NCBI RefSeq assembly: GCF_044647545.1
Contig: NZ_CP172818.1
DNA: 64,000 nucleotides
From: Escherichia coli
Lineage (GTDB): Bacteria; Pseudomonadota; Gammaproteobacteria; Enterobacterales; Enterobacteriaceae
Reading direction: 5' to 3' (one strand)
This document shows, in pieces, positions 9,801-53,343 of the stretch. Position numbers and translations under genes: made by a program. Positions within the stretch are counted from its first letter, which is position 1; every line of letters starts with the position of its first letter. Under the pieces are notes generated by a model that saw only the letters and a program-made list of their open reading frames with translations, ran no database searches and was not told where the DNA came from.

Positions 9801-9962
9801 TCTCCCTCACAGAATGGCACATCACTGGACCTGCAGGCCGGACTGGAAGCCCGTGTCCGGGAAAATATCACCCTGGGCGTTCAGGCCGGTTATGCCCACA
9901 GCGTCAGCGGCAGCAGCGCTGAAGGGTATAACGGTCAGGCCACACTGAATGTGACCTTCTGA
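6843..9962 (+). CDS. flu: Antigen 43 self-associating autotransporter adhesin, 1039 aa
   Basis: Starts MKRHLNTCYRLVWNHMTGAFVVASELARARG (extended autotransporter signal); repetitive beta-helix passenger; C-terminal beta-barrel ending ...GQATLNVTF; track ORF 6687..9962 trimmed to the internal ATG. Confidence 0.92.
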   Translation: MKRHLNTCYRLVWNHMTGAFVVASELARARGKRGGVAVALSLAAVTSLPVLAADIVVHPGETVNGGTLANHDNQIVFGTTNGMTISTGLEYGPDNEANTGGQWVQDGGTANKTTVTSGGLQRVNPGGSVSDTVISAGGGQSLQGRAVNTTLNGGEQWMHEGAIATGTVINDKGWQVVKPGTVATDTVVNTGAEGGPDAENGDTGQFVRGDAVRTTINKNGRQIVRAEGTANTTVVYAGGDQTVHGHALDTTLNGGYQYVHNGGTASDTVVNSDGWQIVKNGGVAGNTTVNQKGRLQVDAGGTATNVTLKQGGALVTSTAATVTGINRLGAFSVVEGKADNVVLENGGRLDVLTGHTATNTRVDDGGTLDVRNGGTATTVSMGNGGVLLADSGAAVSGTRSDGKAFSIGGGQADALMLEKGSSFTLNAGDTATDTTVNGGLFTARGGTLAGTTTLNNGAILTLSGKTVNNDTLTIREGDALLQGGSLTGNGSVEKSGSGTLTVSNTTLTQKAVNLNEGTLTLNDSTVTTDVIAQRGTALKLTGSTVLNGAIDPTNVTLASGATWNIPDNATVQSVVDDLSHAGQIHFTSTRTGKFVPATLKVKNLNGQNGTISLRVRPDMAQNNADRLVIDGGRATGKTILNLVNAGNSASGLATSGKGIQVVEAINGATTEEGAFVQGNRLQAGAFNYSLNRDSDESWYLRSENAYRAEVPLYASMLTQAMDYDRIVAGSRSHQTGVNGENNSVRLSIQGGHLGHDNNGGIARGATPESSGSYGFVRLEGDLMRTEVAGMSVTAGVYGAAGHSSVDVKDDDGSRAGTVRDDAGSLGGYLNLVHTSSGLWADIVAQGTRHSMKASSDNNDFRARGWGWLGSLETGLPFSITDNLMLEPQLQYTWQGLSLDDGKDNAGYVKFGHGSAQHVRAGFRLGSHNDMTFGEGTSSRAPLRDSAKHSVSELPVNWWVQPSVIRTFSSRGDMRVGTSTAGSGMTFSPSQNGTSLDLQAGLEARVRENITLGVQAGYAHSVSGSSAEGYNGQATLNVTF

Positions 9963-9982
9963 CAGAACCATCGCCTCTCTGT

Positions 9983-10007
9983 GGTCCCGGTCATCATGAC
10001 CGGGACC
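9983..10007. repeat. Near-perfect palindrome ggtcccggtcat c atgaccgggacc immediately downstream of flu
   Basis: Read from sequence; 12-bp arms; no T-run follows. Confidence 0.6.
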
Positions 10008-10082
10008 CGGACCGGCGCAACGGATCTTCAACGCCACATTCGCTGGCATTAACAATAACATGATATTCATCACGGAGTGACT

Positions 10083-11615
10083 ATGTTACAGATAGTCGGC
10101 GCGCTGATCCTGCTGATCGCAGGATTTGCCATTCTTCGCCTTTTGTTCAGAGCATTAATCAGCACGGCTTCTGCGCTGGCAGGGCTCATATTGCTGTGTC
10201 TGTTCGGCCCGGCCTTACTGGCTGGCTATATCACCGAACGCATAACCCGGTTGTTCCATATTCGCTGGCTGGCAGGCGTATTTCTGACGATTGCCGGAAT
10301 GATCATCAGCTTCATGTGGGGACTTGATGGTAAACATATCGCGCTGGAGGCTCACACCTTTGACTCTGTGAAATTTATTCTGACCACCGCTCTCGCCGGT
10401 GGTCTGCTGGCTGTTCCCCTGCAGATCAAAAACATTCAGCAGAACGGGATCACACCAGAAGATATCAGCAAGGAAATTAACGGGTATTACTGCTGTTTTT
10501 ATACTGCCTTTTTCCTTATGGCGTGTTCTGCATGCGCACCATTGATCGCGTTACAGTACGATATTTCACCGTCACTGATGTGGTGGGGCGGGTTGTTGTA
10601 CTGGCTGGCTGCATTAGTGACGCTGCTATGGGCGGCCAGCCAGATCCAGGCGCTGAAAAAACTGACCTGTGCCATCAGCCAGACACTGGAAGAACAACCG
10701 GTGCTCAACAGTAAATCGTGGCTGACCAGTTTGCAAAACGATTACAGCCTTCCTGACTCACTGACGGAGCGCATCTGGCTGACGCTCATTTCTCAACGGA
10801 TTTCCCGGGGAGAGCTGAGGGAATTTGAACTGGCAGACGGAAACTGGTTACTGAACAATGCCTGGTATGAAAGAAACATGGCAGGGTTTAACGAACAGTT
10901 GAAAGAGAACCTGTCATTCACACCTGATGAACTGAAAACGCTCTTCCGGAACCGCCTGAATTTATCACCGGAAGCGAATGACGATTTTCTCGATCGTTGC
11001 CTGGACGGCGGTGACTGGTATCCCTTTTCAGAAGGTCGCCGTTTTGTATCATTCCATCACGTGGATGAGCTTCGTATCTGTGCCTCCTGCGGGCTGACAG
11101 AAGTACATCATGCCCCGGAAAATCATAAGCCGGATCCGGAATGGTACTGCTCCTCTCTTTGTCGCGAAACAGAAACACTGTGTCAGGAAATTTATGAACG
11201 CCCTTACAACAGCTTTATTTCCGATGCAACGGCGAATGGTCTGATTCTCATGAAACTGCCGGAAACCTGGAGTACAAATGAGAAAATGTTTGCTTCCGGA
11301 GGGCAGGGACATGGGTTTGCCGCTGAACGGGGAAACCATATTGTCGACAGAGTCCGTCTGAAAAACGCACGGATCCTCGGTGATAATAATGCCAGAAATG
11401 GAGCAGACAGACTGGTCAGCGGAACAGAAATCCAGACGAAATATTGTTCAACTGCAGCCCGTAGCGTCGGTGCGGCATTCGACGGACAAAACGGACAGTA
11501 TCGTTACATGGGAAATAATGGCCCCATGCAACTGGAAGTCCCCCGTGATCAGTATGCCGGCGCTGTTGAAACCATGAGGAATAAGATCCGCGAAGGTAAA
11601 GTAGAGGAGCGATGA
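10083..11615 (+). CDS. yeeR: Prophage-encoded membrane protein of unknown function, 510 aa
   Basis: Hydrophobic N-terminus MLQIVGALILLIAGFAILRLLF; Cys motif CASCGL-x17-CSSLC; overlaps yeeS by ATGA. Confidence 0.8.
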   Translation: MLQIVGALILLIAGFAILRLLFRALISTASALAGLILLCLFGPALLAGYITERITRLFHIRWLAGVFLTIAGMIISFMWGLDGKHIALEAHTFDSVKFILTTALAGGLLAVPLQIKNIQQNGITPEDISKEINGYYCCFYTAFFLMACSACAPLIALQYDISPSLMWWGGLLYWLAALVTLLWAASQIQALKKLTCAISQTLEEQPVLNSKSWLTSLQNDYSLPDSLTERIWLTLISQRISRGELREFELADGNWLLNNAWYERNMAGFNEQLKENLSFTPDELKTLFRNRLNLSPEANDDFLDRCLDGGDWYPFSEGRRFVSFHHVDELRICASCGLTEVHHAPENHKPDPEWYCSSLCRETETLCQEIYERPYNSFISDATANGLILMKLPETWSTNEKMFASGGQGHGFAAERGNHIVDRVRLKNARILGDNNARNGADRLVSGTEIQTKYCSTAARSVGAAFDGQNGQYRYMGNNGPMQLEVPRDQYAGAVETMRNKIREGKVEER

Positions 11616-12058: not shown

Positions 12059-12120
12059 CCCGTCACAACCACATCACACCTGTTTTCACTTTTATCTTCT
12101 GTCTTCAGAGGTATCCCACT

Positions 12121-12342
12121 ATGAAAATTATCACCCGTGGCGAAGCCATGCGTATTCACCGTCAGCATCCGGCATCCCGTCTTTTTCCGTTCTGTACCGG
12201 CAAATACCGCTGGCACGGCAGTGCTGAAGCTTATACCGGTCGTGAAGTGCAGGATATTCCCGGTGTGCTGGCCGTGTTTGCCGAACGCCGTAAGGACAGT
12301 TTTGGTCCGTATGTCCGGCTGATGAGCGTCACCCTGAACTGA
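12121..12342 (+). CDS. yeeT: DUF987-family small protein, 73 aa
   Basis: MKIITRGEAMRIHRQHPASRLFPFCTGKYRWHG...; position between yeeS and cbeA. Confidence 0.8.
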   Translation: MKIITRGEAMRIHRQHPASRLFPFCTGKYRWHGSAEAYTGREVQDIPGVLAVFAERRKDSFGPYVRLMSVTLN

Positions 12343-12416
12343 AAGTGGGAATTCTGCTCATCAGAATTATCACCACTACCGAACCATTCTTACCGATTTT
12401 CTGTAAGGATTTTATC

Positions 12417-12785
12417 GTGTCAGACACACTCTCCGGGACAACACATCCCGACGACAATCACGACCACCCCTGGTGGGGACTACCCTGCACCGTGACGCCC
12501 TGTTTCGGCGCCCGTCTGGTGCAGGAGGGTAACCGCTTGCATTACCTTGCCGACCGCGCCGGTAACAGAGGCCTGTTCAGCGATGCAGATGCGTACCCCC
12601 TGGACCAGGCCTTTCCGCTGCTGATGAAACAACTGGAACTCATGCTCACCAGCGGTGAACTGAATCCCCGCCATCAGCATACCGTCACACTGTATGCGAA
12701 GGGGCTGACCTGTGAAGCTGACACCCTCGGCAGCTGTGGTTACGTTTATCTGGCTGTTTATCCGACGCCCGAAACGAAAAATTAA
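12417..12785 (+). CDS. cbeA: Type IV antitoxin CbeA (YeeU), 122 aa, GTG start
   Basis: VSDTLSGTTHPDDNHDHPWWGLPCTVTPCFGARLVQEGNRLHYLADRAG...; track ORF 12345..12785 trimmed to the GTG. Confidence 0.8.
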   Translation: MSDTLSGTTHPDDNHDHPWWGLPCTVTPCFGARLVQEGNRLHYLADRAGNRGLFSDADAYPLDQAFPLLMKQLELMLTSGELNPRHQHTVTLYAKGLTCEADTLGSCGYVYLAVYPTPETKN

Positions 12786-12873
12786 CCCACCGGAATAACC
12801 TTCTGCTCCGGCCTGGTGCTTTCACCACGCCACTTTTCCATTTTTATCTCTGCATATCAGGAAAATCTTCAGT

Positions 12874-13247
12874 ATGAAAACATTACCCGTATTACCCGGG
12901 CAGGCGGCGTTCTCGCCCGTCTCCTGTTACCATCTGGCAGATACTGCTCACCCGATTACTGGACCAGCACTACAGCCTTACGCTGAATGACACACCGTTC
13001 GCCGATGAACGCGTGATTGAGCAGCATATTGAGGCAGGCATTTCACTGTGTGATGCAGTGAACTTTCTCGTGGAAAAATACGTACTGGTACAACTGACCA
13101 GCCGGGATTCAGCGCCGGAACCCGTCTCAGTTAATCAACAGCATTGATATCCTCCGGGCTCGCCGGGCAACCGGTCTGATGACCCGCAGCAACTACAGAA
13201 CGGTAAATAACATTACCCTGGGTAAGTATCCGGAGGCGAAAAATGAA
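12874..13247 (+). pseudogene. cbtA: CbtA (YeeV)-like toxin gene with the reading frame split over three frames
   Basis: ATG at 12874 gives [12 protein letters not shown] then stops at 12988; CbtA-like residues [48 protein letters not shown] are in the +1 frame (stop 13145); [21 protein letters not shown]... is in the +2 frame. Confidence 0.6.
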
Positions 13248-13439
13248 ATGACGCTGGAAGCCGACAGCGTTAACGTACAGGCGCTGGATATGGGGCACAT
13301 TGTCGTTGACGTCGATGGTGTTAATCTCACTGAACTGATTAATAAAGCCGCTGAAAACGGTTATTCACTCCGCGTGGTGGATGACCGTGACACTACCGAA
13401 ACACCGGCAACTTCTGCCAGCCCTCATCAGTTGCCGTAA
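13248..13439 (+). CDS. yeeW: Small prophage protein YeeW-like (63 aa), here in frame with the last cbtA segment
   Basis: MTLEADSVNVQALDMGHIVVDVDGVNLTELINKAAENGYSLRVVDDRDTTETPATSASPHQLP; part of track ORF 13179..13439. Confidence 0.5.
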   Translation: MTLEADSVNVQALDMGHIVVDVDGVNLTELINKAAENGYSLRVVDDRDTTETPATSASPHQLP

Positions 13440-13604
13440 GACAATACAGTGATACAGAGTATAATGCCATTAGCCACAGAAAAAAAAAAAAACAGCACTG
13501 TTGTCCTGTATTAAACAGGCAAGAGAAGATATCCATACCCTGCGCCATCTGCAGCTTCTGCACCAGAACCGGTGAATCTCACTCAACAGACTTCATTTCC
13601 CCTG

Positions 13605-13636
13605 ACGCCAGCCTGAATACAGCTGGCGTTTTCATT
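13605..13636 (+). terminator. Intrinsic terminator (acgccagc ctgaatac agctggcgt tttcattt) downstream of yeeW
   Basis: GC-rich stem followed by a T-rich run. Confidence 0.6.
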
Positions 13637-13733
13637 TATATACAGAAAGGAAAACCGATAATAATGGAATGGACGCCCCGACCATGAAGCAACGGTAGGA
13701 TATTACTGATAAACCTTCCAGTGGAGGTGCGTT

Positions 13734-13814
13734 ATGGCCGTTTTAACGATTAGCATTGACCTGACAAAAAATGAATTCCAAATCCACGGTCTGGGTAGGA
13801 ACAGAAAAATCTAA
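13734..13814 (+). pseudogene. 26-codon remnant resembling the N-terminus of an IS110-family transposase
   Basis: MAVLTISIDLTKNEFQIHGLGRNRKI then stop; the ISIDLTK pattern resembles the IGIDxAK start of IS110-type transposases; weak. Confidence 0.25.
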
Positions 13815-13889
13815 GCTCAGAAAACGGATTAAAGTAAGCGTCAACGGAGCACCATATTGACGCTTATTTATTGGTGAGAACTACGTTCC

Positions 13890-14246
13890 ATGGCAGGAGT
13901 TCGTCAACACGGTTGGAGGGCCATTCCGGCAGTATGCTCAGAATATGGCGCAGATACGCTTCCGGATCGATACCGTTCAGACGGCAGGTGCCTGCTTTTC
14001 CGGCAACAAGCAGGAATCTCAGCGCTGAAGCAGGAATTAGAGGTAAAAACGCCCTACCGGGCCATGAATCACCCGGTCATTGGAGTAGTAACCAAAGCAG
14101 ATTTAGCCAGCATGGAACAAATATCTTTGGTGAAATGTTGGTTACGGGAAGCTGGAGCGCACAACGTGTTAGTAACCAGTGCGGTTAATAACAATGGAGT
14201 TACAGAACTTTTTGCCTTGCTGCATACAGAAGAAGGCTGCCGCTAA
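13890..14246 (+). pseudogene. yoeF: C-terminal fragment of an EutP/PduV-family small GTPase
   Basis: ...NHPVIGVVTKADLASMEQISLVKCWLREAGAHNVLVTSAVNNNGVTELFALLHTEE; no P-loop upstream; upstream part of the track ORF is unlikely to be native. Confidence 0.45.
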
Positions 14247-14346
14247 TTTCGATAGGTTCTCAGATGAGAATGATGACGGTGATACACAGATAAGAATCAA
14301 TGAGCAATGAGGGTTGCCGGGCAACCCTCATTGAATAAAACAGGAA

Positions 14347-14676
14347 TTACTTCGCTTCGCCGTTTTTCATTTCGCCCATAGCTTTCAGCTTTTTGGAGAT
14401 ATCGCGGCGTTCTTTGGAGAGCTCGGCATTTTTGATGATGTAATCGTCAACGCGATCTTCATAGTCACCTTTCATGCTGGCGATGATGCCCTGGATTGCT
14501 TCAACGCTCATCCCTGGCTTGATGTAATCGCTCAGGTTGTCCAGCAACAGGACGCGCTTCTGGTTGTCACGGATCTTTTTCTCAACGTCCTGAATTTCAC
14601 GTTGCAGTTTGTTCTTACGACGGAACAGACGAACAAATTCCAGTACGTCCTGGAATGAAGGCTTGGTAGTTTCCAT
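14347..14676 (-). CDS. yeeX: UPF0265/DUF496 protein YeeX, 109 aa
   Basis: [41 protein letters not shown]...; track ORF trimmed to the internal ATG. Confidence 0.85.
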
Positions 14677-14847
14677 TTTTATACCCCTGATAATGTGAGA
14701 GTCGGATTCGTTTAAGCAACCGCTATTCGATAGGGCCAACATTACTCATAGCTGCCGCAGATGACAATGCTTTTATCCCTTTTCACTATCATACCCTTTA
14801 TCCTTGCTGAATCGAAGCAGCAGCAAGATGATTCTGAAGTTCAGGAA

Positions 14848-15906
14848 TTATTTGCGCAAGGCCCGGCAAATCAGATTCGATAGCAACTCAAGCTGATGCG
14901 CCGTTTCCATGTTCAGCCACACATAACCATAGATTGGTGTTTCCACAACCTTCAGGTCATGGTGGTTATTAAGCAACAGACGCAGCTCTTCCACAGCATC
15001 GTTCAATTTTTCCGTATTGGCAAAAACCGGCTGCGGATTACCTTCGTACAGCGCATGAACAAGGCTCAGCAGTATTTGCTGCATCATGTGCTGGGTATCA
15101 CGAAGTTTTTGCGCGTTCAATAACACGAAATGGCTGGGGCGCGTGGCCCAGTATGCATTGATTTGCAACTCCAGCATACAAACCAGATTGCGGTTAATGG
15201 TCTGGATACCTTCATATATCGATTTTGGAATACGGGTTTCTTTGCTGGCGGGCGCAATCAGCCCACGCATTTTCACGGCATCGGTCAGCAGTTTTTGTAG
15301 ATGGCTTTCCAGACGTGGGCGTTCGAGTAAGTTCGGTGAGAATGCAGATTGATAGACCCGATTATACTCGGTCAGACTTTTCGCCAGTTGAATGCGCCAG
15401 TGGATGAACGCCCGTTGTGGCCAGATACCGGTAAACAACATTGCCAGTAAAGAGCCGAGGATCACATCGCCGCTTCGCCATAACGCCGTATCAATTTCAC
15501 CTGTCGGGGAACCCACAACAATTGCCAGCGTCACCCCAATCAATAATCCTTGATACGGTTTCTTGCCCAGCGCCAGCCAACCGCAAAGAAACATCGCCGC
15601 CGCGCACCAGACTAACATCAGCGGTAACGAAATTAACTCCAGTTGCAGAGCGATAAGACCTAAAATCGAACCCAACACCGTACCGCCAATACGTTCGAAG
15701 GCACGAGGGACAACGTTCCCCCAGAACGAGATTGGCCCCATAATCACCACCATGGTGACCAGCGGCCAGGTGCTTTCCGGGATAGTAAACAGGCGGATAA
15801 TGAGAAAAGTGAGCAGGAATGCCAGCGCGACCCGAGTACCATGCACAATGCGGTAATGGCGGTATACCCGGATTTCAAACGGGCTTAATGACTTATCGGC
15901 ACGCAC
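14848..15906 (-). CDS. yeeA: Inner-membrane protein YeeA (FUSC-like putative transporter), 352 aa
   Basis: Multi-pass hydrophobic N-terminal half; size and synteny. Confidence 0.85.
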   Translation of the reverse strand: MRADKSLSPFEIRVYRHYRIVHGTRVALAFLLTFLIIRLFTIPESTWPLVTMVVIMGPISFWGNVVPRAFERIGGTVLGSILGLIALQLELISLPLMLVWCAAAMFLCGWLALGKKPYQGLLIGVTLAIVVGSPTGEIDTALWRSGDVILGSLLAMLFTGIWPQRAFIHWRIQLAKSLTEYNRVYQSAFSPNLLERPRLESHLQKLLTDAVKMRGLIAPASKETRIPKSIYEGIQTINRNLVCMLELQINAYWATRPSHFVLLNAQKLRDTQHMMQQILLSLVHALYEGNPQPVFANTEKLNDAVEELRLLLNNHHDLKVVETPIYGYVWLNMETAHQLELLSNLICRALRK

Positions 15907-16103
15907 GCAGAAACTCCGTAATGAAGATTAAAAGCGCTCATAACACATCTGTCGGCCAGAAGGCGCGCCTCTGAGTTATCCGACGGACATACCGGGAACA
16001 GTGTAATTTCCCGGCAGGAGCGAAAAATTTGAAAGGCGCATCTTACTCTTTTCGCTTTCAAAAAAAGAGTGGTCTTCGCGTCAACACACCGCCCTGAGAT
16101 GAA

Positions 16104-16577
16104 TTAGTGATGTTTTGGCTGCACCGCAACATACATTTCGATATCCCAGTACCCATCTTCCGCGCCATTGTTCAAGTAAACCTCGAAGCAGGGCTTTGGT
16201 AACATTTCATAGGCACTGTCCTGCAAGAGGCTATTAAAGAACTGATACCAGGGTTTAGCAAAATCATCACCGACTACACGAGCCACCGCCACCGCATACT
16301 GACCACCTGAAATTTCTGTCAGAATGACGCCCTCACTGTTTTCGGGGAGCGTAAAGTTATTCGGCACCGTCACGACGGTGTCGCAGCGTAATTTTTCGGC
16401 GGGTGTTTCATCTGGATTGTCGTAATAGACAGCAACCCACTCCTTCGGCACAATATTTTTGCTATCTATCCACATCATCAACTGCTCAAAGCCTTTCTTT
16501 ACCGTCTGTTCCCACGGGCCAACGAGATGGAAACCTGCAACGGTACGTTTATCTTCCTGCTTAATCTCGTAGTTCAT
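16104..16577 (-). CDS. sbmC: DNA gyrase inhibitor SbmC (GyrI), 157 aa
   Basis: [41 protein letters not shown]...; LexA box upstream. Confidence 0.9.
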
Positions 16578-16591
16578 GACGCCCCCATTAA

Positions 16592-16611
16592 TACTGTTTT
16601 TATATACAGTA
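16592..16611 (-). promoter_or_regulatory. LexA (SOS) box tactgtttttatatacagta upstream of sbmC
   Basis: Perfect CTGT-N8-ACAG palindrome 15 bp upstream of the sbmC start. Confidence 0.75.
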
Positions 16612-16695
16612 TAGTTGCAATATTAAAACCACAAGGAATGAGTGTTGATTATGCGAGCAGACTCGCACTCCTGCCAGTCTGCTGCAAAAGAAAGG

Positions 16696-17862
16696 TCAGG
16701 CCTTATGGTGGAAATAATCACTCAGCCGGGAAAACATGCTGCCTTCCCCGACAGATTCCAGGGTAACCAGCGGCCAGTGCGCCACCTGTTTATCACGGTC
16801 GTAAAGTTCAATTTCCCCTACCCGCTGATGGGCGCTAATTGGCGCGGTGAGTTCTTTACCATCAAGGGTATATTTGGCTTTGATATGTGGAATTTCGGCT
16901 TTCGGTAGCACCATCCAGAACTCTTGTTCCGTTCCCAGGGCGATATTTTCTTTATCGCCATACCAGATGCGTTCCGTACCAACCTTTTTCCCACGGTGCA
17001 AAATTTGCACCGTAGTAAAGTTTTGTTGACCCCAACGCAGTAATTTTCTTGCCTCTTCCTCACGACCTTTTGCGCTGTCAGCCCCCATTACCACTGCAAT
17101 GAGACGACGCTGCCCATCTACAGCCGAAGCAATGAGATTAAACCCGGCACCAGAAGTATGACCCGTTTTCAGGCCGTCAACATTCATGGTTTTATCCCAC
17201 AATAACCCGTTACGGTTTTGCTGGGTGATACCGTTCCAGGTGAGGCTTTTCTCACTGTACATATGATAAAACTCGGGCTCGCCGTGGATGATAGCGCGAG
17301 AAAGCACAGCTAAATCATAAGCCGAGCTATGCTGGCCAGGTGCATCCAGACCATGCACTGTTTCAAAATGCGTATCCTTGAGATGCAGCTTCTCGGCATA
17401 GTTGTTCATCATTTCAACAAACTGCCGTTGCCCACCGGCAATATAGTCAGCCAGTGCAACACAAGCGTCATTTCCGGAATCCACAATTAAACCACGGCTT
17501 AAATCACGTACCGATACGCGATCGCCCTCTTTCAAAAACATCAGTGAAGAACCGACAAACACCGGATTATCTTTCGCCCACGCATCACGCCCCACGGTGA
17601 CAATATCGTCTGGCGTAATGCGATGACTATCGATAGCACGATCCACGACATAGCCCGTCATCAGCTTTGTCAGGCTGGCGGGATTGCGCTGTTGATGCTC
17701 ATTACCCGCGGTGAGAATCTGACCGGTGGTGTAATCCATCAATACCCAGGACCCGGCATGAATCTCTGGAGGCTGAGGTGAAAAAGGAATGTTTTCCGCC
17801 GCAAAACCAGACGATAAATTAAAAACGAACAAAGAAGCAGCAATAATAAGACGGCGTTTCAA
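16696..17862 (-). CDS. dacD: D-alanyl-D-alanine carboxypeptidase DacD (PBP6b), 388 aa, probable TTG start
   Basis: SxxK motif PASLTKLMT, SGN motif DSGND; signal peptide; start uncertain by two codons. Confidence 0.88.
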   Translation of the reverse strand: MKRRLIIAASLFVFNLSSGFAAENIPFSPQPPEIHAGSWVLMDYTTGQILTAGNEHQQRNPASLTKLMTGYVVDRAIDSHRITPDDIVTVGRDAWAKDNPVFVGSSLMFLKEGDRVSVRDLSRGLIVDSGNDACVALADYIAGGQRQFVEMMNNYAEKLHLKDTHFETVHGLDAPGQHSSAYDLAVLSRAIIHGEPEFYHMYSEKSLTWNGITQQNRNGLLWDKTMNVDGLKTGHTSGAGFNLIASAVDGQRRLIAVVMGADSAKGREEEARKLLRWGQQNFTTVQILHRGKKVGTERIWYGDKENIALGTEQEFWMVLPKAEIPHIKAKYTLDGKELTAPISAHQRVGEIELYDRDKQVAHWPLVTLESVGEGSMFSRLSDYFHHKA

Positions 17863-18070
17863 CAGCAAACCCTCAGGTGTTTCAAATAGCTGTTCTTTTT
17901 ACGGAAATACTTATGAACTGGCTGGAATAAAGTGCAAGAAAATGTGACTACTATCTCATTTTTATCTGACATGATCTGTTGCCACTCGCTGCCAAATTGT
18001 CGCGCTAAAGCTGATTAGCACGGTGATATTTGATACTCTGGCAGACAGCAGAAATAACGGATTTAACCTA

Positions 18071-19498
18071 ATGATGAATGACGGTAAGCAACAACCTACC
18101 TTTTTCTTTCACGATTACGAAACCTTTGGAACGCACCCCGCGTTAGATCGCCCTGCACAGTTCGCAGCCATTCGCACTGATAACGAATTCAATGTCATCG
18201 GCGAACCCGAAGTCTTTTACTGCAAGCCCGCGGATGACTATTTACCCCAGCCTGGAGCAGTATTAATTACCGGTATTACCCCGCAGGAAGCACGGGCGAA
18301 AGGAGAAAACGAAGCCGCGTTTGCCGCCCGTATTCACTCGCTTTTTACCGTACCGAAGACCTGTATTCTGGGCTACAACAATGTGCGTTTCGACGATGAA
18401 GTCACACGCAACGTTTTTTATCGTAATTTCTACGATCCTTACGCCTGGAGCTGGCAGCATGATAACTCGCGCTGGGATTTACTGGATGTTATGCGTGCCT
18501 GTTATGCCCTGCGCCCGGAAGGAATAAACTGGCCTGAAAATGATGACGGTCTACCGAGCTTTCGCCTTGAGCATTTAACCAAAGCGAATGGTATTGAACA
18601 TAGCAACGCCCACGATGCGATGGCTGATGTGTACGCCACTATTGCGATGGCGAAACTGGTAAAAACGCGTCAGCCACGCCTGTTTGATTATCTCTTTACC
18701 CATCGTAATAAACACAAACTGATGGCGTTGATTGATGTTCCGCAGATGAAACCCCTGGTTCACGTTTCCGGAATGTTTGGGGCATGGCGTGGCAATACCA
18801 GCTGGGTGGCACCGCTGGCGTGGCATCCTGAAAATCGCAATGCCGTAATTATGGTGGATTTGGCAGGAGACATTTCACCATTACTGGAGCTGGATAGCGA
18901 CACATTGCGCGAGCGTTTATATACCGCAAAAGCCGATCTTGGCGATAACGCCGCCGTTCCGGTTAAGCTGGTGCATATCAATAAATGTCCGGTACTGGCC
19001 CAGGCGAATACGCTACGCCCGGAAGACGCTGAGCGTTTAGGGATTGCTCGTCAACACTGCCTGGATAACCTGAAAGTGTTGCGCGAAAACCCGCAAGTAC
19101 GCGACAAAGTTGTGGCAATTTTTGCAGAAGCTGAACCGTTTACACCATCAGATAATGTAGATGCACAGCTTTATAATGGCTTTTTTAGCGACGCCGATCG
19201 TGCAGCAATGAAAATCGTGCTGGAGACTGAACCGCGTAATTTACCGGCTCTGGATATCACCTTTGTTGATAAGCGTATCGAGAAACTCCTGTTCAACTAC
19301 CGCGCCCGCAACTTCCCCGGCACGTTAGATGACAACGAGCAGCAACGCTGGCTTGAGCACCGCCGCCAGGTCTTCACACCCGAGTTTTTACAAGGCTATG
19401 CAGAAGAGATTCAGATGCTGGCGCAGCTGTATGCCGACGATAAAGAAAAAGTGGCGCTGTTAAAAGCGCTTTGGCAGTACGCGGAAGAGATTGTCTAA
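18071..19498 (+). CDS. sbcB: Exodeoxyribonuclease I, 475 aa
   Basis: MMNDGKQQPTFFFHDYETFG... DEDD exonuclease motifs; track ORF trimmed to the internal ATG. Confidence 0.9.
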   Translation: MMNDGKQQPTFFFHDYETFGTHPALDRPAQFAAIRTDNEFNVIGEPEVFYCKPADDYLPQPGAVLITGITPQEARAKGENEAAFAARIHSLFTVPKTCILGYNNVRFDDEVTRNVFYRNFYDPYAWSWQHDNSRWDLLDVMRACYALRPEGINWPENDDGLPSFRLEHLTKANGIEHSNAHDAMADVYATIAMAKLVKTRQPRLFDYLFTHRNKHKLMALIDVPQMKPLVHVSGMFGAWRGNTSWVAPLAWHPENRNAVIMVDLAGDISPLLELDSDTLRERLYTAKADLGDNAAVPVKLVHINKCPVLAQANTLRPEDAERLGIARQHCLDNLKVLRENPQVRDKVVAIFAEAEPFTPSDNVDAQLYNGFFSDADRAAMKIVLETEPRNLPALDITFVDKRIEKLLFNYRARNFPGTLDDNEQQRWLEHRRQVFTPEFLQGYAEEIQMLAQLYADDKEKVALLKALWQYAEEIV

Positions 19499-24443: not shown

Positions 24444-24593
24444 CCGTTATCTCCTGATACACCTAAGATCTATAAGGCTACGCTAGCGTATCAAAACTGA
24501 CAATTCATTCTATGAATGAGACGTTCATACCACACAAGAAAATTATGAGAGAAAGATCAATATTGAACTTTACCAACATTTGTAGACCAGATA

Positions 24594-24626
24594 AGGCATT
24601 CACGCCGCATCCGGCAGGAACCAAAG
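24594..24626 (-). repeat. REP (repetitive extragenic palindromic) element
   Basis: Reverse complement cctgccggatgcggcgtgaatgccttatctg matches the REP consensus. Confidence 0.7.
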
Positions 24627-24794
24627 CCCACTTTAGTTACAGAACACAATGTTCTTGAGGGTTTTAAAGACATATTTTCACGATTTCTTTTCTAACGTAG
24701 TCAAAACCACCTAACGCCAGTCACTCCAGGCCCCCTCCTTTCCCCGCTCATTCATTAAACAAATCCATTGCCATAAAATATATAAAAAAGCCCT

Positions 24795-53272: not shown

Positions 53273-53343
53273 TTTTTCCTCATAAATTTGATGCCAGGTG
53301 AGGCTATGTTTGTTGTGTTCGTTGCGGAACCGAAAACAGCCAT

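What the first reader, a model, noticed from the sequence alone, without database searches (positions are those of the whole stretch)
13480..13492. A13 homopolymer downstream of yeeW
Thirteen consecutive A residues (acag a13 cagcactg) in non-coding DNA at the decayed right flank of the prophage. Runs this long are rare in E. coli and are hotspots for slipped-strand mutation and for long-read indel errors; the run could also be a relic of an integration or recombination junction.
Basis: seen in the sequence. Interest (0 to 1): 0.35.

Follow-up and report, generated by a model that had tools for sequence, protein, structure and literature searches.

The report
Private A13 run, likely assembly artefact
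The run of thirteen A's beside a prophage toxin-antitoxin module is really in this sequence, but every other E. coli genome checked has three A's there and the surrounding 1.5 kb looks like a mis-built consensus of several gene copies, so it is most likely an assembly artefact with no biological role.

Summary
A13 is present at 13480-13492 and is rare: shuffles expect 0.01 per window, and the next-longest run is A9. It is not in plain non-coding DNA. It occupies codons 6-10 of a remnant 'DUF957' ORF at the right end of prophage CP4-44, exactly at the junction of an old 93-bp in-frame deletion. In 3,895 complete E. coli genomes that junction reads CCACAG-AAA-CAGCACTG, and none has a longer tract. 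Scans of metagenomes and GTDB species representatives found no insertion at the site. The proteins encoded by the window's allele occur on one contig only among about 15 billion proteins. The +10 A lies inside a private 1.5-kb patch (12119-13641) that blends at least four paralogous island alleles. The window as a whole is identical to K-12 in K-12-only accessory DNA, including the laboratory IS5 in wbbL, yet its core matches phylogroup-F strains. Its odd patches fall only in multi-copy sequence. This is the signature of a K-12-templated or polished consensus of another strain. Best reading (about 0.65): a consensus artefact at a site where paralogs differ structurally. Rivals: a real strain-private insertion in a pseudogene (about 0.2), or a 10-base gap placeholder (about 0.1). 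There is no polymorphism and no sign of function. Interest is low.

The parts
13480..13492 (+). A13 homopolymer: the A3 of the normal junction plus 10 extra A's
   Evidence: K-12, SMS-3-5, 30EVA1 and the E-class copies all read CCACAG-AAA-CAGCACTG.
13464..13514 (+). Truncated remnant ORF created by the +10 frameshift (MPLATEKKKNSTVVLY*)
   Evidence: The K-12-type equivalent is a 33-codon ORF, V/MPLTTETALLSCIKQAREDVLTLRHLQLLHQNR*.
13464..13575 (+). Remnant of the 'DUF957' gene: start codon through the original TGA at 13573-13575. It carries the 93-bp in-frame deletion shared with K-12-type CP4-44.
   Evidence: The intact gene is 65 codons in CE10 (L002:1562-1759).
13604..13639 (+). Intrinsic-terminator-like hairpin (GACGCCAGC...GCTGGCGUC) followed by UUUUCAUUU, closing the DUF957 remnant. 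It is conserved in intact copies.
   Evidence: -16.1 kcal/mol, z = -5.6, 0 of 200 shuffles as good; alignment.
12119..13641 (.). Private mosaic patch covering yeeT end, cbeA, cbtA, yeeW and the DUF957 remnant. It holds 107 of the 113 differences from the nearest relative SMS-3-5. Nearly all the variant bases are alleles of paralogous island copies.
13179..13439 (+). 86-codon ORF fusing the cbtA tail to yeeW (DUF5983_N domain). It is allele-specific and is used here as a marker for the source genome.
   Evidence: one contig only; PF25638, E = 5e-29.
12874..13178 (+). cbtA toxin gene, broken by several frameshifts in this allele
   Evidence: indels at 12908, 13124, 13242-13247.
12417..12785 (+). 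cbeA antitoxin gene, intact. The protein variant is known from one contig only.
   Evidence: WP_400165261.1.

Best explanation
The A13 is most likely not a feature of the organism's DNA at this locus. It looks like an error introduced when the source 'chromosome' was built. The window behaves like a K-12 MG1655 template onto which reads of a different strain, with a core like phylogroup F, were projected. Where K-12 has DNA the other strain lacks, the K-12 sequence was kept unchanged. Where the strain has single-copy homologues, its own alleles were written in. Where the sequence is multi-copy, reads from several paralogous CP4-like islands were piled together and produced a private blend. The blended segments are the cbeA-cbtA-yeeW-DUF957 module, the yeeP fragment and the IS2 end. 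The tract sits inside such a blend, at the one point where the paralogs differ structurally: a 93-bp segment is present in 'intact' copies and absent in 'deleted' copies. Read alignments break there, and consensus or local-reassembly software is most likely to write something spurious. Shown: the singleton status, the blend, the templating pattern and the junction. Inferred: that the extra 10 A's were produced by software rather than by the cell. Whatever its origin, the run has no detectable function. It frameshifts an already crippled 33-codon remnant ORF.
For: (1) Singleton. The junction is A3 in all top-ranked matches among 3,895 complete genomes, and any longer tract would have ranked higher. 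No genome exceeds 94.9% over 13150-13900. No insertion of 1-27 bp at this junction was found in JGI metagenomes or GTDB representatives, where all 51 hits were non-homologous. The allele's proteins occur on one contig of 4,499,902 bp among about 15 billion proteins. (2) The nearest relatives are 100% identical over 4 kb of adjacent core and differ by 3 substitutions over the next 11 kb. Those same strains carry A3. (3) The tract lies in a 1.5-kb patch with about 7% divergence from every one of 13,570 homologous places. Yet 95 of 103 variant positions are bases found in other paralog classes, with donor class changing every 10-30 bp and forming incompatible splits. Only about 14 private columns remain outside the tract, against 49-156 for natural allele classes. 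(4) Templating pattern. There are zero differences from K-12 across 6523-11609 (flu, yeeR) and 36157-~44900 (O16-specific rfb genes including the IS5 in wbbL), with 1-3% divergence in all core DNA and switches exactly at the edges of homology. The window is fully collinear with K-12. (5) Other differences inside the K-12-identical island occur only in multi-copy sequence: yeeP 5981-6522 is SMS-3-5-like, and the IS2 3' end plus yoeA at 5259-5569 has indels and is matched best by K-12 at only 95.8% among 21,788 places. (6) Alignment-based correction is known to be unreliable in repeats (abstract of PMC8812927). (7) There is no functional context. The tract is not part of a terminator on either strand, there is no Rfam match, and promoter-like sites are no more frequent than in shuffles.
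Against: No reads or assembly metadata could be examined, so the artefact is inferred and not shown. Consensus callers normally copy bases from reads and do not invent ten A's, and I cannot name the exact software step that would. Single-copy parts of the window are clean, so the assembly is not generally noisy. The ~211 bp at 24519-24730 that replaces K-12's yefM-yoeB aligns to K-12 in neither comparison and is only partly matched in SMS-3-5. The pipeline must therefore have included some local assembly, or the strain could be a genuine K-12 hybrid. The source has RefSeq protein accessions, so it passed NCBI's checks.
Confidence: 0.65

Rival explanations
1. The A13 is real: a very recent, strain-private insertion of ten A's at the A3 of the DUF957 remnant. 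It is selectively neutral because the ORF is already a deletion remnant. Once present, it would be a hotspot for slippage.
For: The sequence as given contains it. If the consensus was built from reads, an insertion call normally needs reads that carry it. The site is a pseudogene remnant where any indel is tolerated. All three other small insertions in the patch relative to SMS-3-5 are also A's, though these match paralog alleles.
Against: A3 is too short to expand by slipped-strand mispairing (own knowledge), and no intermediate length exists in 3,895 genomes. The closest relatives have A3. The surrounding patch is itself not credible as a natural allele. No mechanism for a one-step +10 homopolymer insertion is evident, and there is no new target-site duplication.
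Confidence: 0.2
2. The ten extra letters stand for a fixed-length gap placeholder, such as 10 N's opened at an unresolved local misassembly, that was rendered as A somewhere between the assembler and this window.
For: The insertion is exactly 10 bases. It sits at the structural discrepancy between paralog classes. The source is not in the 'complete genome' set, as expected for an assembly with gaps. Ten is a common minimum gap size in assembly tools (own knowledge, not tested).
Against: Other data served by the same tools keep non-ACGT letters: 19 in the fetched loci. The flanks abut perfectly with no lost or duplicated base, which is unusual for a real gap. The attempt to confirm or exclude it through ORFs crossing the tract was inconclusive.
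Confidence: 0.1
3. The tract is a functional element: a phase-variable switch for the small ORF or neighbouring genes, an UP-like A-tract for a promoter, or the T-run of a minus-strand terminator.
For: It lies near the 5' end of a small ORF. A promoter-like site (AAGACA-16-TATAAT, 10 of 12) lies 15 bp upstream.
Against: It is not conserved and not polymorphic, being A3 in all other genomes. The ORF is a deletion remnant. Promoter-like sites are at the chance level, 2 found against 2.1 expected, and the TATAAT overlaps the ORF's start codon. The minus-strand fold is no better than shuffles, z = -0.17, and no terminator was called at the tract. There is no Rfam match.
Confidence: 0.02

Closest known systems
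K-12-type right end of prophage CP4-44: the DUF957 pseudogene remnant after yeeW (e.g. D8B36_RS08765 in MG1655 NZ_CP032667.1; ECSMS35_RS28710 in SMS-3-5)
   Same: Same locus, same 93-bp deletion junction, same downstream stop codon and terminator hairpin, and the same neighbours: cbeA, cbtA, yeeW, a transposase fragment, a eutP-like fragment and tmaR.
   Different: The known form has A3 and an open 33-codon frame. The window has A13, a frameshift to a 16-codon ORF, and about 7% blended substitutions around it.
Homopolymeric contingency loci, i.e. phase variation by slipped-strand mispairing as in Neisseria, Haemophilus and Campylobacter (own knowledge)
   Same: A long mononucleotide run within the first codons of an ORF. 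A run of 13 would be slippage-prone if real.
   Different: No length variation among isolates, no conservation of a long tract, and the host ORF is a pseudogene remnant. The tract is seen in a single genome.
Consensus or polishing errors in repeated sequence (Wick & Holt, Polypolish, PMC8812927)
   Same: The anomaly is confined to multi-copy sequence while single-copy DNA is clean. The result is a blend of paralog alleles seen in no real genome.
   Different: Documented errors are mostly substitutions and short indels. A clean +10 homopolymer insertion is not a typical reported outcome. Here the template appears to be a foreign reference (K-12) and not a draft of the same strain.
Fixed-length gap placeholders in scaffolds (runs of 10 N; own knowledge)
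   Same: Exactly ten extra positions, located at an unresolved structural difference.
   Different: The letters are A's, the flanks join without loss, and N's are kept elsewhere in the data.

Membership tests
Phase-variable homopolymer (contingency locus) | Tract length differs among isolates of the species | tested here: not met
   All top-ranked matches among 3,895 complete genomes span 140 of 150 query bases, which is A3. No longer tract was found. No insertion at the site was found in metagenomes or GTDB representatives.
Phase-variable homopolymer (contingency locus) | Tract lies in the promoter or 5' coding region of a functional, expressed gene | tested here: not met
   It lies in codons 6-10 of a remnant ORF that has lost 31 of 65 codons and is annotated as a pseudogene.
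Intrinsic terminator (T-run on the minus strand) | A G+C-rich hairpin immediately precedes the T-run | tested here: not met
   The scan found no terminator at the tract. The minus-strand fold is -9.2 kcal/mol, z = -0.17, with a weak 5-bp stem 12 nt away from the T-run.
DUF957 protein family (for the ORF that holds the tract) | Significant match to the family profile | tested here: not met
   Neither the intact 65-aa CE10 protein nor the 33-aa remnant hits any family in Pfam-A or NCBIfam. The name rests only on RefSeq annotation of the homologues. Homology of the remnant to the intact gene is shown directly by alignment.
Reference-templated consensus assembly | Identical to the reference in reference-specific accessory DNA, including laboratory-lineage mutations | tested here: met
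   There are 0 differences from MG1655 across 6523-11609 and 36157-~44900, including the IS5 in wbbL.
Reference-templated consensus assembly | Core DNA carries the alleles of a different lineage, and the switch falls at the edges of homology | tested here: met
   The core at 14300-18300 is 100% identical to SMS-3-5, ECONIH1 and MS6198. Over that stretch one search counts roughly 75 differences from K-12, about 2%. The last difference is at 36156, just past gnd, and divergence jumps to about 11% at rfbA.
Reference-templated consensus assembly | Private blended sequence restricted to multi-copy segments | tested here: met
   TA patch 12119-13641, yeeP 5981-6522 and the IS2 end 5259-5569. Single-copy DNA is clean.
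Reference-templated consensus assembly | Read pile-ups show mixed alleles or zero coverage at the affected places; the assembly method is stated in the record | not testable with these tools
   The source record could not be retrieved, and reads are not available.

The most novel reading that the evidence does not exclude
The ten extra A's are real and arose in one step in a single strain by a mechanism other than slippage. Possibilities include untemplated or RNA/RT-mediated A-addition during repair or ectopic conversion between paralogous CP4-like islands, at the exact point where the paralogs differ by 93 bp. That would create a new hypermutable tract.
Probability: 0.05. Interest if true: 0.35.

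Novelty: not a real feature. Interest (0 to 1): 0.06.

Why it matters
It matters mainly as quality control. The tract and the 1.5 kb around it should not be interpreted biologically. The same caution applies to other findings from this window, which looks like a K-12-templated construct: its flu-yeeR and O16 rfb segments are probably K-12 sequence and not the sequenced strain's. If the tract were real it would be a minor curiosity, a one-off 10-base homopolymer insertion in a pseudogene remnant, with no bearing on the CbtA/CbeA module.

Tried and rejected
(1) Small RNA gene reading: a TATAAT at 13460-13465 and a strong hairpin at 13604-13630 suggested it. I rejected it because the TATAAT overlaps the start codon of the DUF957 remnant, the hairpin is that gene's terminator and is conserved in intact copies, and there is no Rfam match. 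(2) A short 161-bp megablast census with the window's own flanks failed, because the blended flanks share almost no 28-base word with real genomes. I replaced it with a query of resident-type flanks plus A13. (3) Retrieving the source record through its unique proteins: not on record. (4) Confirming A versus N through ORFs that cross the tract: none is in the protein collection. (5) Counting mosaic switches as a test of artefact: not discriminating, because natural alleles stripped of their own class need 40-65 switches against 69 for the window. The private-site count was informative instead. (6) A fixed-weight majority-vote model of paralog reads: rejected by inspection, because sites shared only with class E are interleaved with sites where only class E differs. 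The paralog set of the source strain is unknown. (7) An A-specific mutational process (DGR-like, or A-insertion bias): the substitution spectrum is mixed, and the other inserted A's are paralog alleles. (8) An old independent allele lineage: rejected because there are very few private sites and the allele is a singleton. (9) A true K-12 x foreign hybrid strain: not excluded, but it would need crossovers flanking every K-12-specific segment plus three private micro-blends.

Full report
OBSERVATION. The window contains thirteen consecutive A's at 13480-13492 in the context ccacag-A13-cagcactg. This is well beyond chance. Dinucleotide-preserving shuffles of the window give 0.01 such runs on average, and the next-longest runs in the 64 kb are A9 and A8/T8.

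WHERE IT SITS. The neighbourhood is the right end of the cryptic prophage CP4-44: yeeR, yeeS, yeeT, cbeA, cbtA and yeeW, then a transposase fragment, a eutP-like fragment, tmaR, yeeA and sbmC. I aligned the window with a K-12-type copy, SMS-3-5, strain 30EVA1 and a copy from strain CE10 that has an intact downstream gene. The alignment shows that the tract is not in anonymous spacer DNA. RefSeq annotates a small gene as 'DUF957' that starts about 25 bp after yeeW. In CE10 it encodes 65 residues, MPLTTETALDILIAWLQDN...LLYQNR. The K-12-type copy has lost 93 bp in frame between the near-repeats CAGCGCTG and CAGCACTG. That leaves a 33-codon ORF, V/MPLTTETALLSCIKQAREDVLTLRHLQLLHQNR, followed by the original terminator hairpin at window 13604-13630 (-16.1 kcal/mol, z = -5.6). 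The deletion junction reads CCACAG-AAA-CAGCACTG. The window has the same junction with ten additional A's. This shifts the frame and truncates the ORF to MPLATEKKKNSTVVLY*. Neither Pfam nor NCBIfam recognises the intact protein, so the family name rests on RefSeq annotation only.

IS THE TRACT POLYMORPHIC? No. A 150-base query made of resident-type flanks with A13 in the middle matched 3,895 complete E. coli genomes at 80% coverage or more. Every top-ranked match spans 140 bases at 93.3% identity, which is A3 with perfect flanks. Any genome with a longer tract would have ranked above them. The broader searches agree: nothing exceeds 94.9% over 13150-13900. A pattern allowing any 1-27-base insertion at the junction returned only 51 non-homologous chance hits in JGI metagenomes and GTDB species representatives. 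The proteins specific to the window's allele occur on a single contig, an NCBI E. coli chromosome of 4,499,902 bp, among about 15 billion proteins. These are the 86-residue cbtA-tail/yeeW fusion, its 63-residue RefSeq version WP_400165328.1, and the CbeA variant WP_400165261.1. The tract is a singleton.

THE PATCH AROUND IT. The adjacent core (14300-18300) is 100% identical to phylogroup-F strains such as SMS-3-5, ECONIH1 and MS6198. Against SMS-3-5 the window shows 113 differences between 11605 and 24519. Of these, 107 lie within 12119-13641, and only three lie in the following 11 kb. No place among 13,570 homologous places in 5,426 genomes matches this patch at better than 92.8%. Yet the patch is not an old independent allele. 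95 of 103 variant positions carry bases found in other paralogous CP4-like island copies. Outside the tract only about 14 alignment columns are private, against 49-156 for natural allele classes analysed the same way. The site-by-site table shows bases shared only with the resident class (for example 12350, 12377, 12391, 12405, 12443, 12459). These interleave at 10-30-bp spacing with bases shared only with a second class (12357-12361, 12372, 12382, 12432, 12466). Further along, the table shows bases specific to single sampled copies (L006 at 12956-13095, L007 at 13117-13136, L011 at 13188-13189) and to the intact-DUF957 class (13346-13458, 13531). At least four donor types are therefore blended in 1.5 kb, in one genome only. 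cbtA ends up with several frameshifts, because partial sets of paralog indels are combined.

THE WINDOW AS A WHOLE. Comparison with K-12 MG1655 over 58.8 kb shows full collinearity and a very particular pattern. There are zero differences across 6523-11609 (flu, yeeR). There are also zero differences across 36157 to about 44900, the O16-specific rfb genes including the IS5 insertion in wbbL, which is a laboratory-lineage mutation of K-12 by my own knowledge. All core DNA is 1-3% diverged from K-12. The switches fall at the edges of homology: the last difference is at 36156, just past gnd, and divergence jumps to about 11% at rfbA. Inside the K-12-identical island, differences occur only where the sequence is multi-copy. 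These are the yeeP GTPase fragment (5981-6522, SMS-3-5-like), the last ~225 bp of IS2 plus the yoeA fragment (5259-5569, with several indels, best matched by K-12 at only 95.8% among 21,788 places), and the TA patch. A true K-12 x foreign hybrid would need a crossover on each side of every K-12-specific segment plus three private micro-blends. A consensus built by projecting another strain's reads onto a K-12 template explains all of it simply. Uncovered K-12-only DNA stays as reference, single-copy homologues take the strain's alleles, clean deletions are applied (K-12's IS5 near cobU is absent at window 2656), and multi-copy segments collect reads from several paralogs. The chromosome size of 4.50 Mb, smaller than K-12, and the source's absence from the complete-genome collection fit this. 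Alignment-based correction is known to be unreliable in repeats (abstract of PMC8812927).

BEST EXPLANATION. The A13 lies in such a blended segment, at the one position where the paralogs differ structurally by the 93-bp segment. Read alignments must break there. I therefore think the ten extra A's were written by the assembly or consensus process, with confidence about 0.65. The singleton status, the blend, the templating pattern and the junction are shown. The software origin of the A's is inferred, and I cannot name the exact step. As a variant of this reading, the ten positions could be a fixed-length gap placeholder rendered as A (about 0.1). The number ten and the location fit. Against it, non-ACGT letters are kept elsewhere in the data, the flanks abut perfectly, and my attempt to check through ORFs crossing the tract was inconclusive.

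RIVALS. A real, very recent, strain-private insertion (about 0.2) cannot be excluded without reads. If reads were the source of the consensus, an insertion call normally needs reads that contain it. But A3 is too short for slippage, no intermediate lengths exist, the closest relatives carry A3, and the surrounding sequence is not credible as a natural allele. A functional reading (about 0.02) has nothing in its favour. The tract is absent from all related genomes, the ORF is a remnant, the upstream TATAAT overlaps the ORF's start codon, promoter-like sites are at the chance level, the minus-strand T-run is not preceded by a usable hairpin, and Rfam finds nothing.

COMPARISON WITH WHAT IS KNOWN. 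The closest known object is the K-12-type DUF957 remnant itself, from which the window differs by the +10 A's and the blended substitutions. It resembles a contingency-locus homopolymer only in form, and it fails the defining tests of polymorphism and a functional host gene. It meets three testable features of a reference-templated consensus. The fourth, read evidence, is not testable here.

VERDICT. Novelty: most likely not a real feature. Interest is low (0.06). The useful outcome is a warning that this window mixes K-12 reference sequence with another strain's alleles.

Noticed in passing
window 1-58800, especially 6523-11609 and 36157-44900: The window is collinear with K-12 MG1655. It is identical to K-12 in K-12-only accessory DNA (flu-yeeR, and the O16 rfb genes with the IS5 in wbbL), but its core is 1-3% diverged from K-12 and 100% identical to phylogroup-F strains. 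It looks like a K-12-templated consensus of another strain. Other findings from this window should be read with that in mind.
   Followed up: yes
window 5259-5569: The last ~225 bp of the IS2 copy and the adjoining yoeA fragment differ from K-12 by about 20 substitutions and 7 small indels, while the first ~1 kb of the same IS2 is identical. The best full-length match in 5,426 genomes is K-12 at 95.8%. 18 records have partial matches at 99% or more that I did not inspect.
   Followed up: partly
window 5981-6522: The yeeP GTPase pseudogene fragment inside the otherwise K-12-identical island carries 22 substitutions. Over 5963-6526 it is 99.8% identical to the intact GTPase gene of the SMS-3-5 island.
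   Followed up: partly
window 13464-13640; L002:1562-1759: The K-12-type 'DUF957' pseudogene is an in-frame 93-bp deletion between CAGCGCTG and CAGCACTG. It leaves a 33-codon ORF with its start, stop and terminator intact, with perfect flanks in the 40 top-ranked genomes and at 90-95% (A3-type) in about 3,900. Whether this mini-ORF is expressed is unknown.
   Followed up: partly
L002:1562-1759 (CE10); L008, L010: The intact 65-residue protein that RefSeq calls 'DUF957 domain-containing' hits no model in the Pfam-A (2025 copy) or NCBIfam (release 20) libraries available here.
   Followed up: no
L004:13722-14095 (SMS-3-5); L003:976-1349 (30EVA1): cbtA is annotated as a frameshifted pseudogene in the window's nearest natural relatives as well. 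Loss of the toxin in this lineage may therefore be genuine, independent of the blended patch.
   Followed up: no
window 24519-24730: K-12's yefM-yoeB toxin-antitoxin pair (660 bp) is absent and is replaced by about 211 bp. That stretch aligns to K-12 in neither comparison and is only partly matched in SMS-3-5, with a 20-base insertion (24699-24718) relative to SMS-3-5.
   Followed up: no
window 2656 and 53320-53325: K-12's IS5 next to cobU is cleanly absent at 2656. About 198 bp of K-12 sequence between wcaK and wzxC is missing at 53320-53325.
   Followed up: no
window 12315-12371: A weak Rfam match to the archaeal snoRNA sR7 (19.8 bits against a gathering score of 37, E = 0.19). It is almost certainly a chance match.
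   Followed up: no
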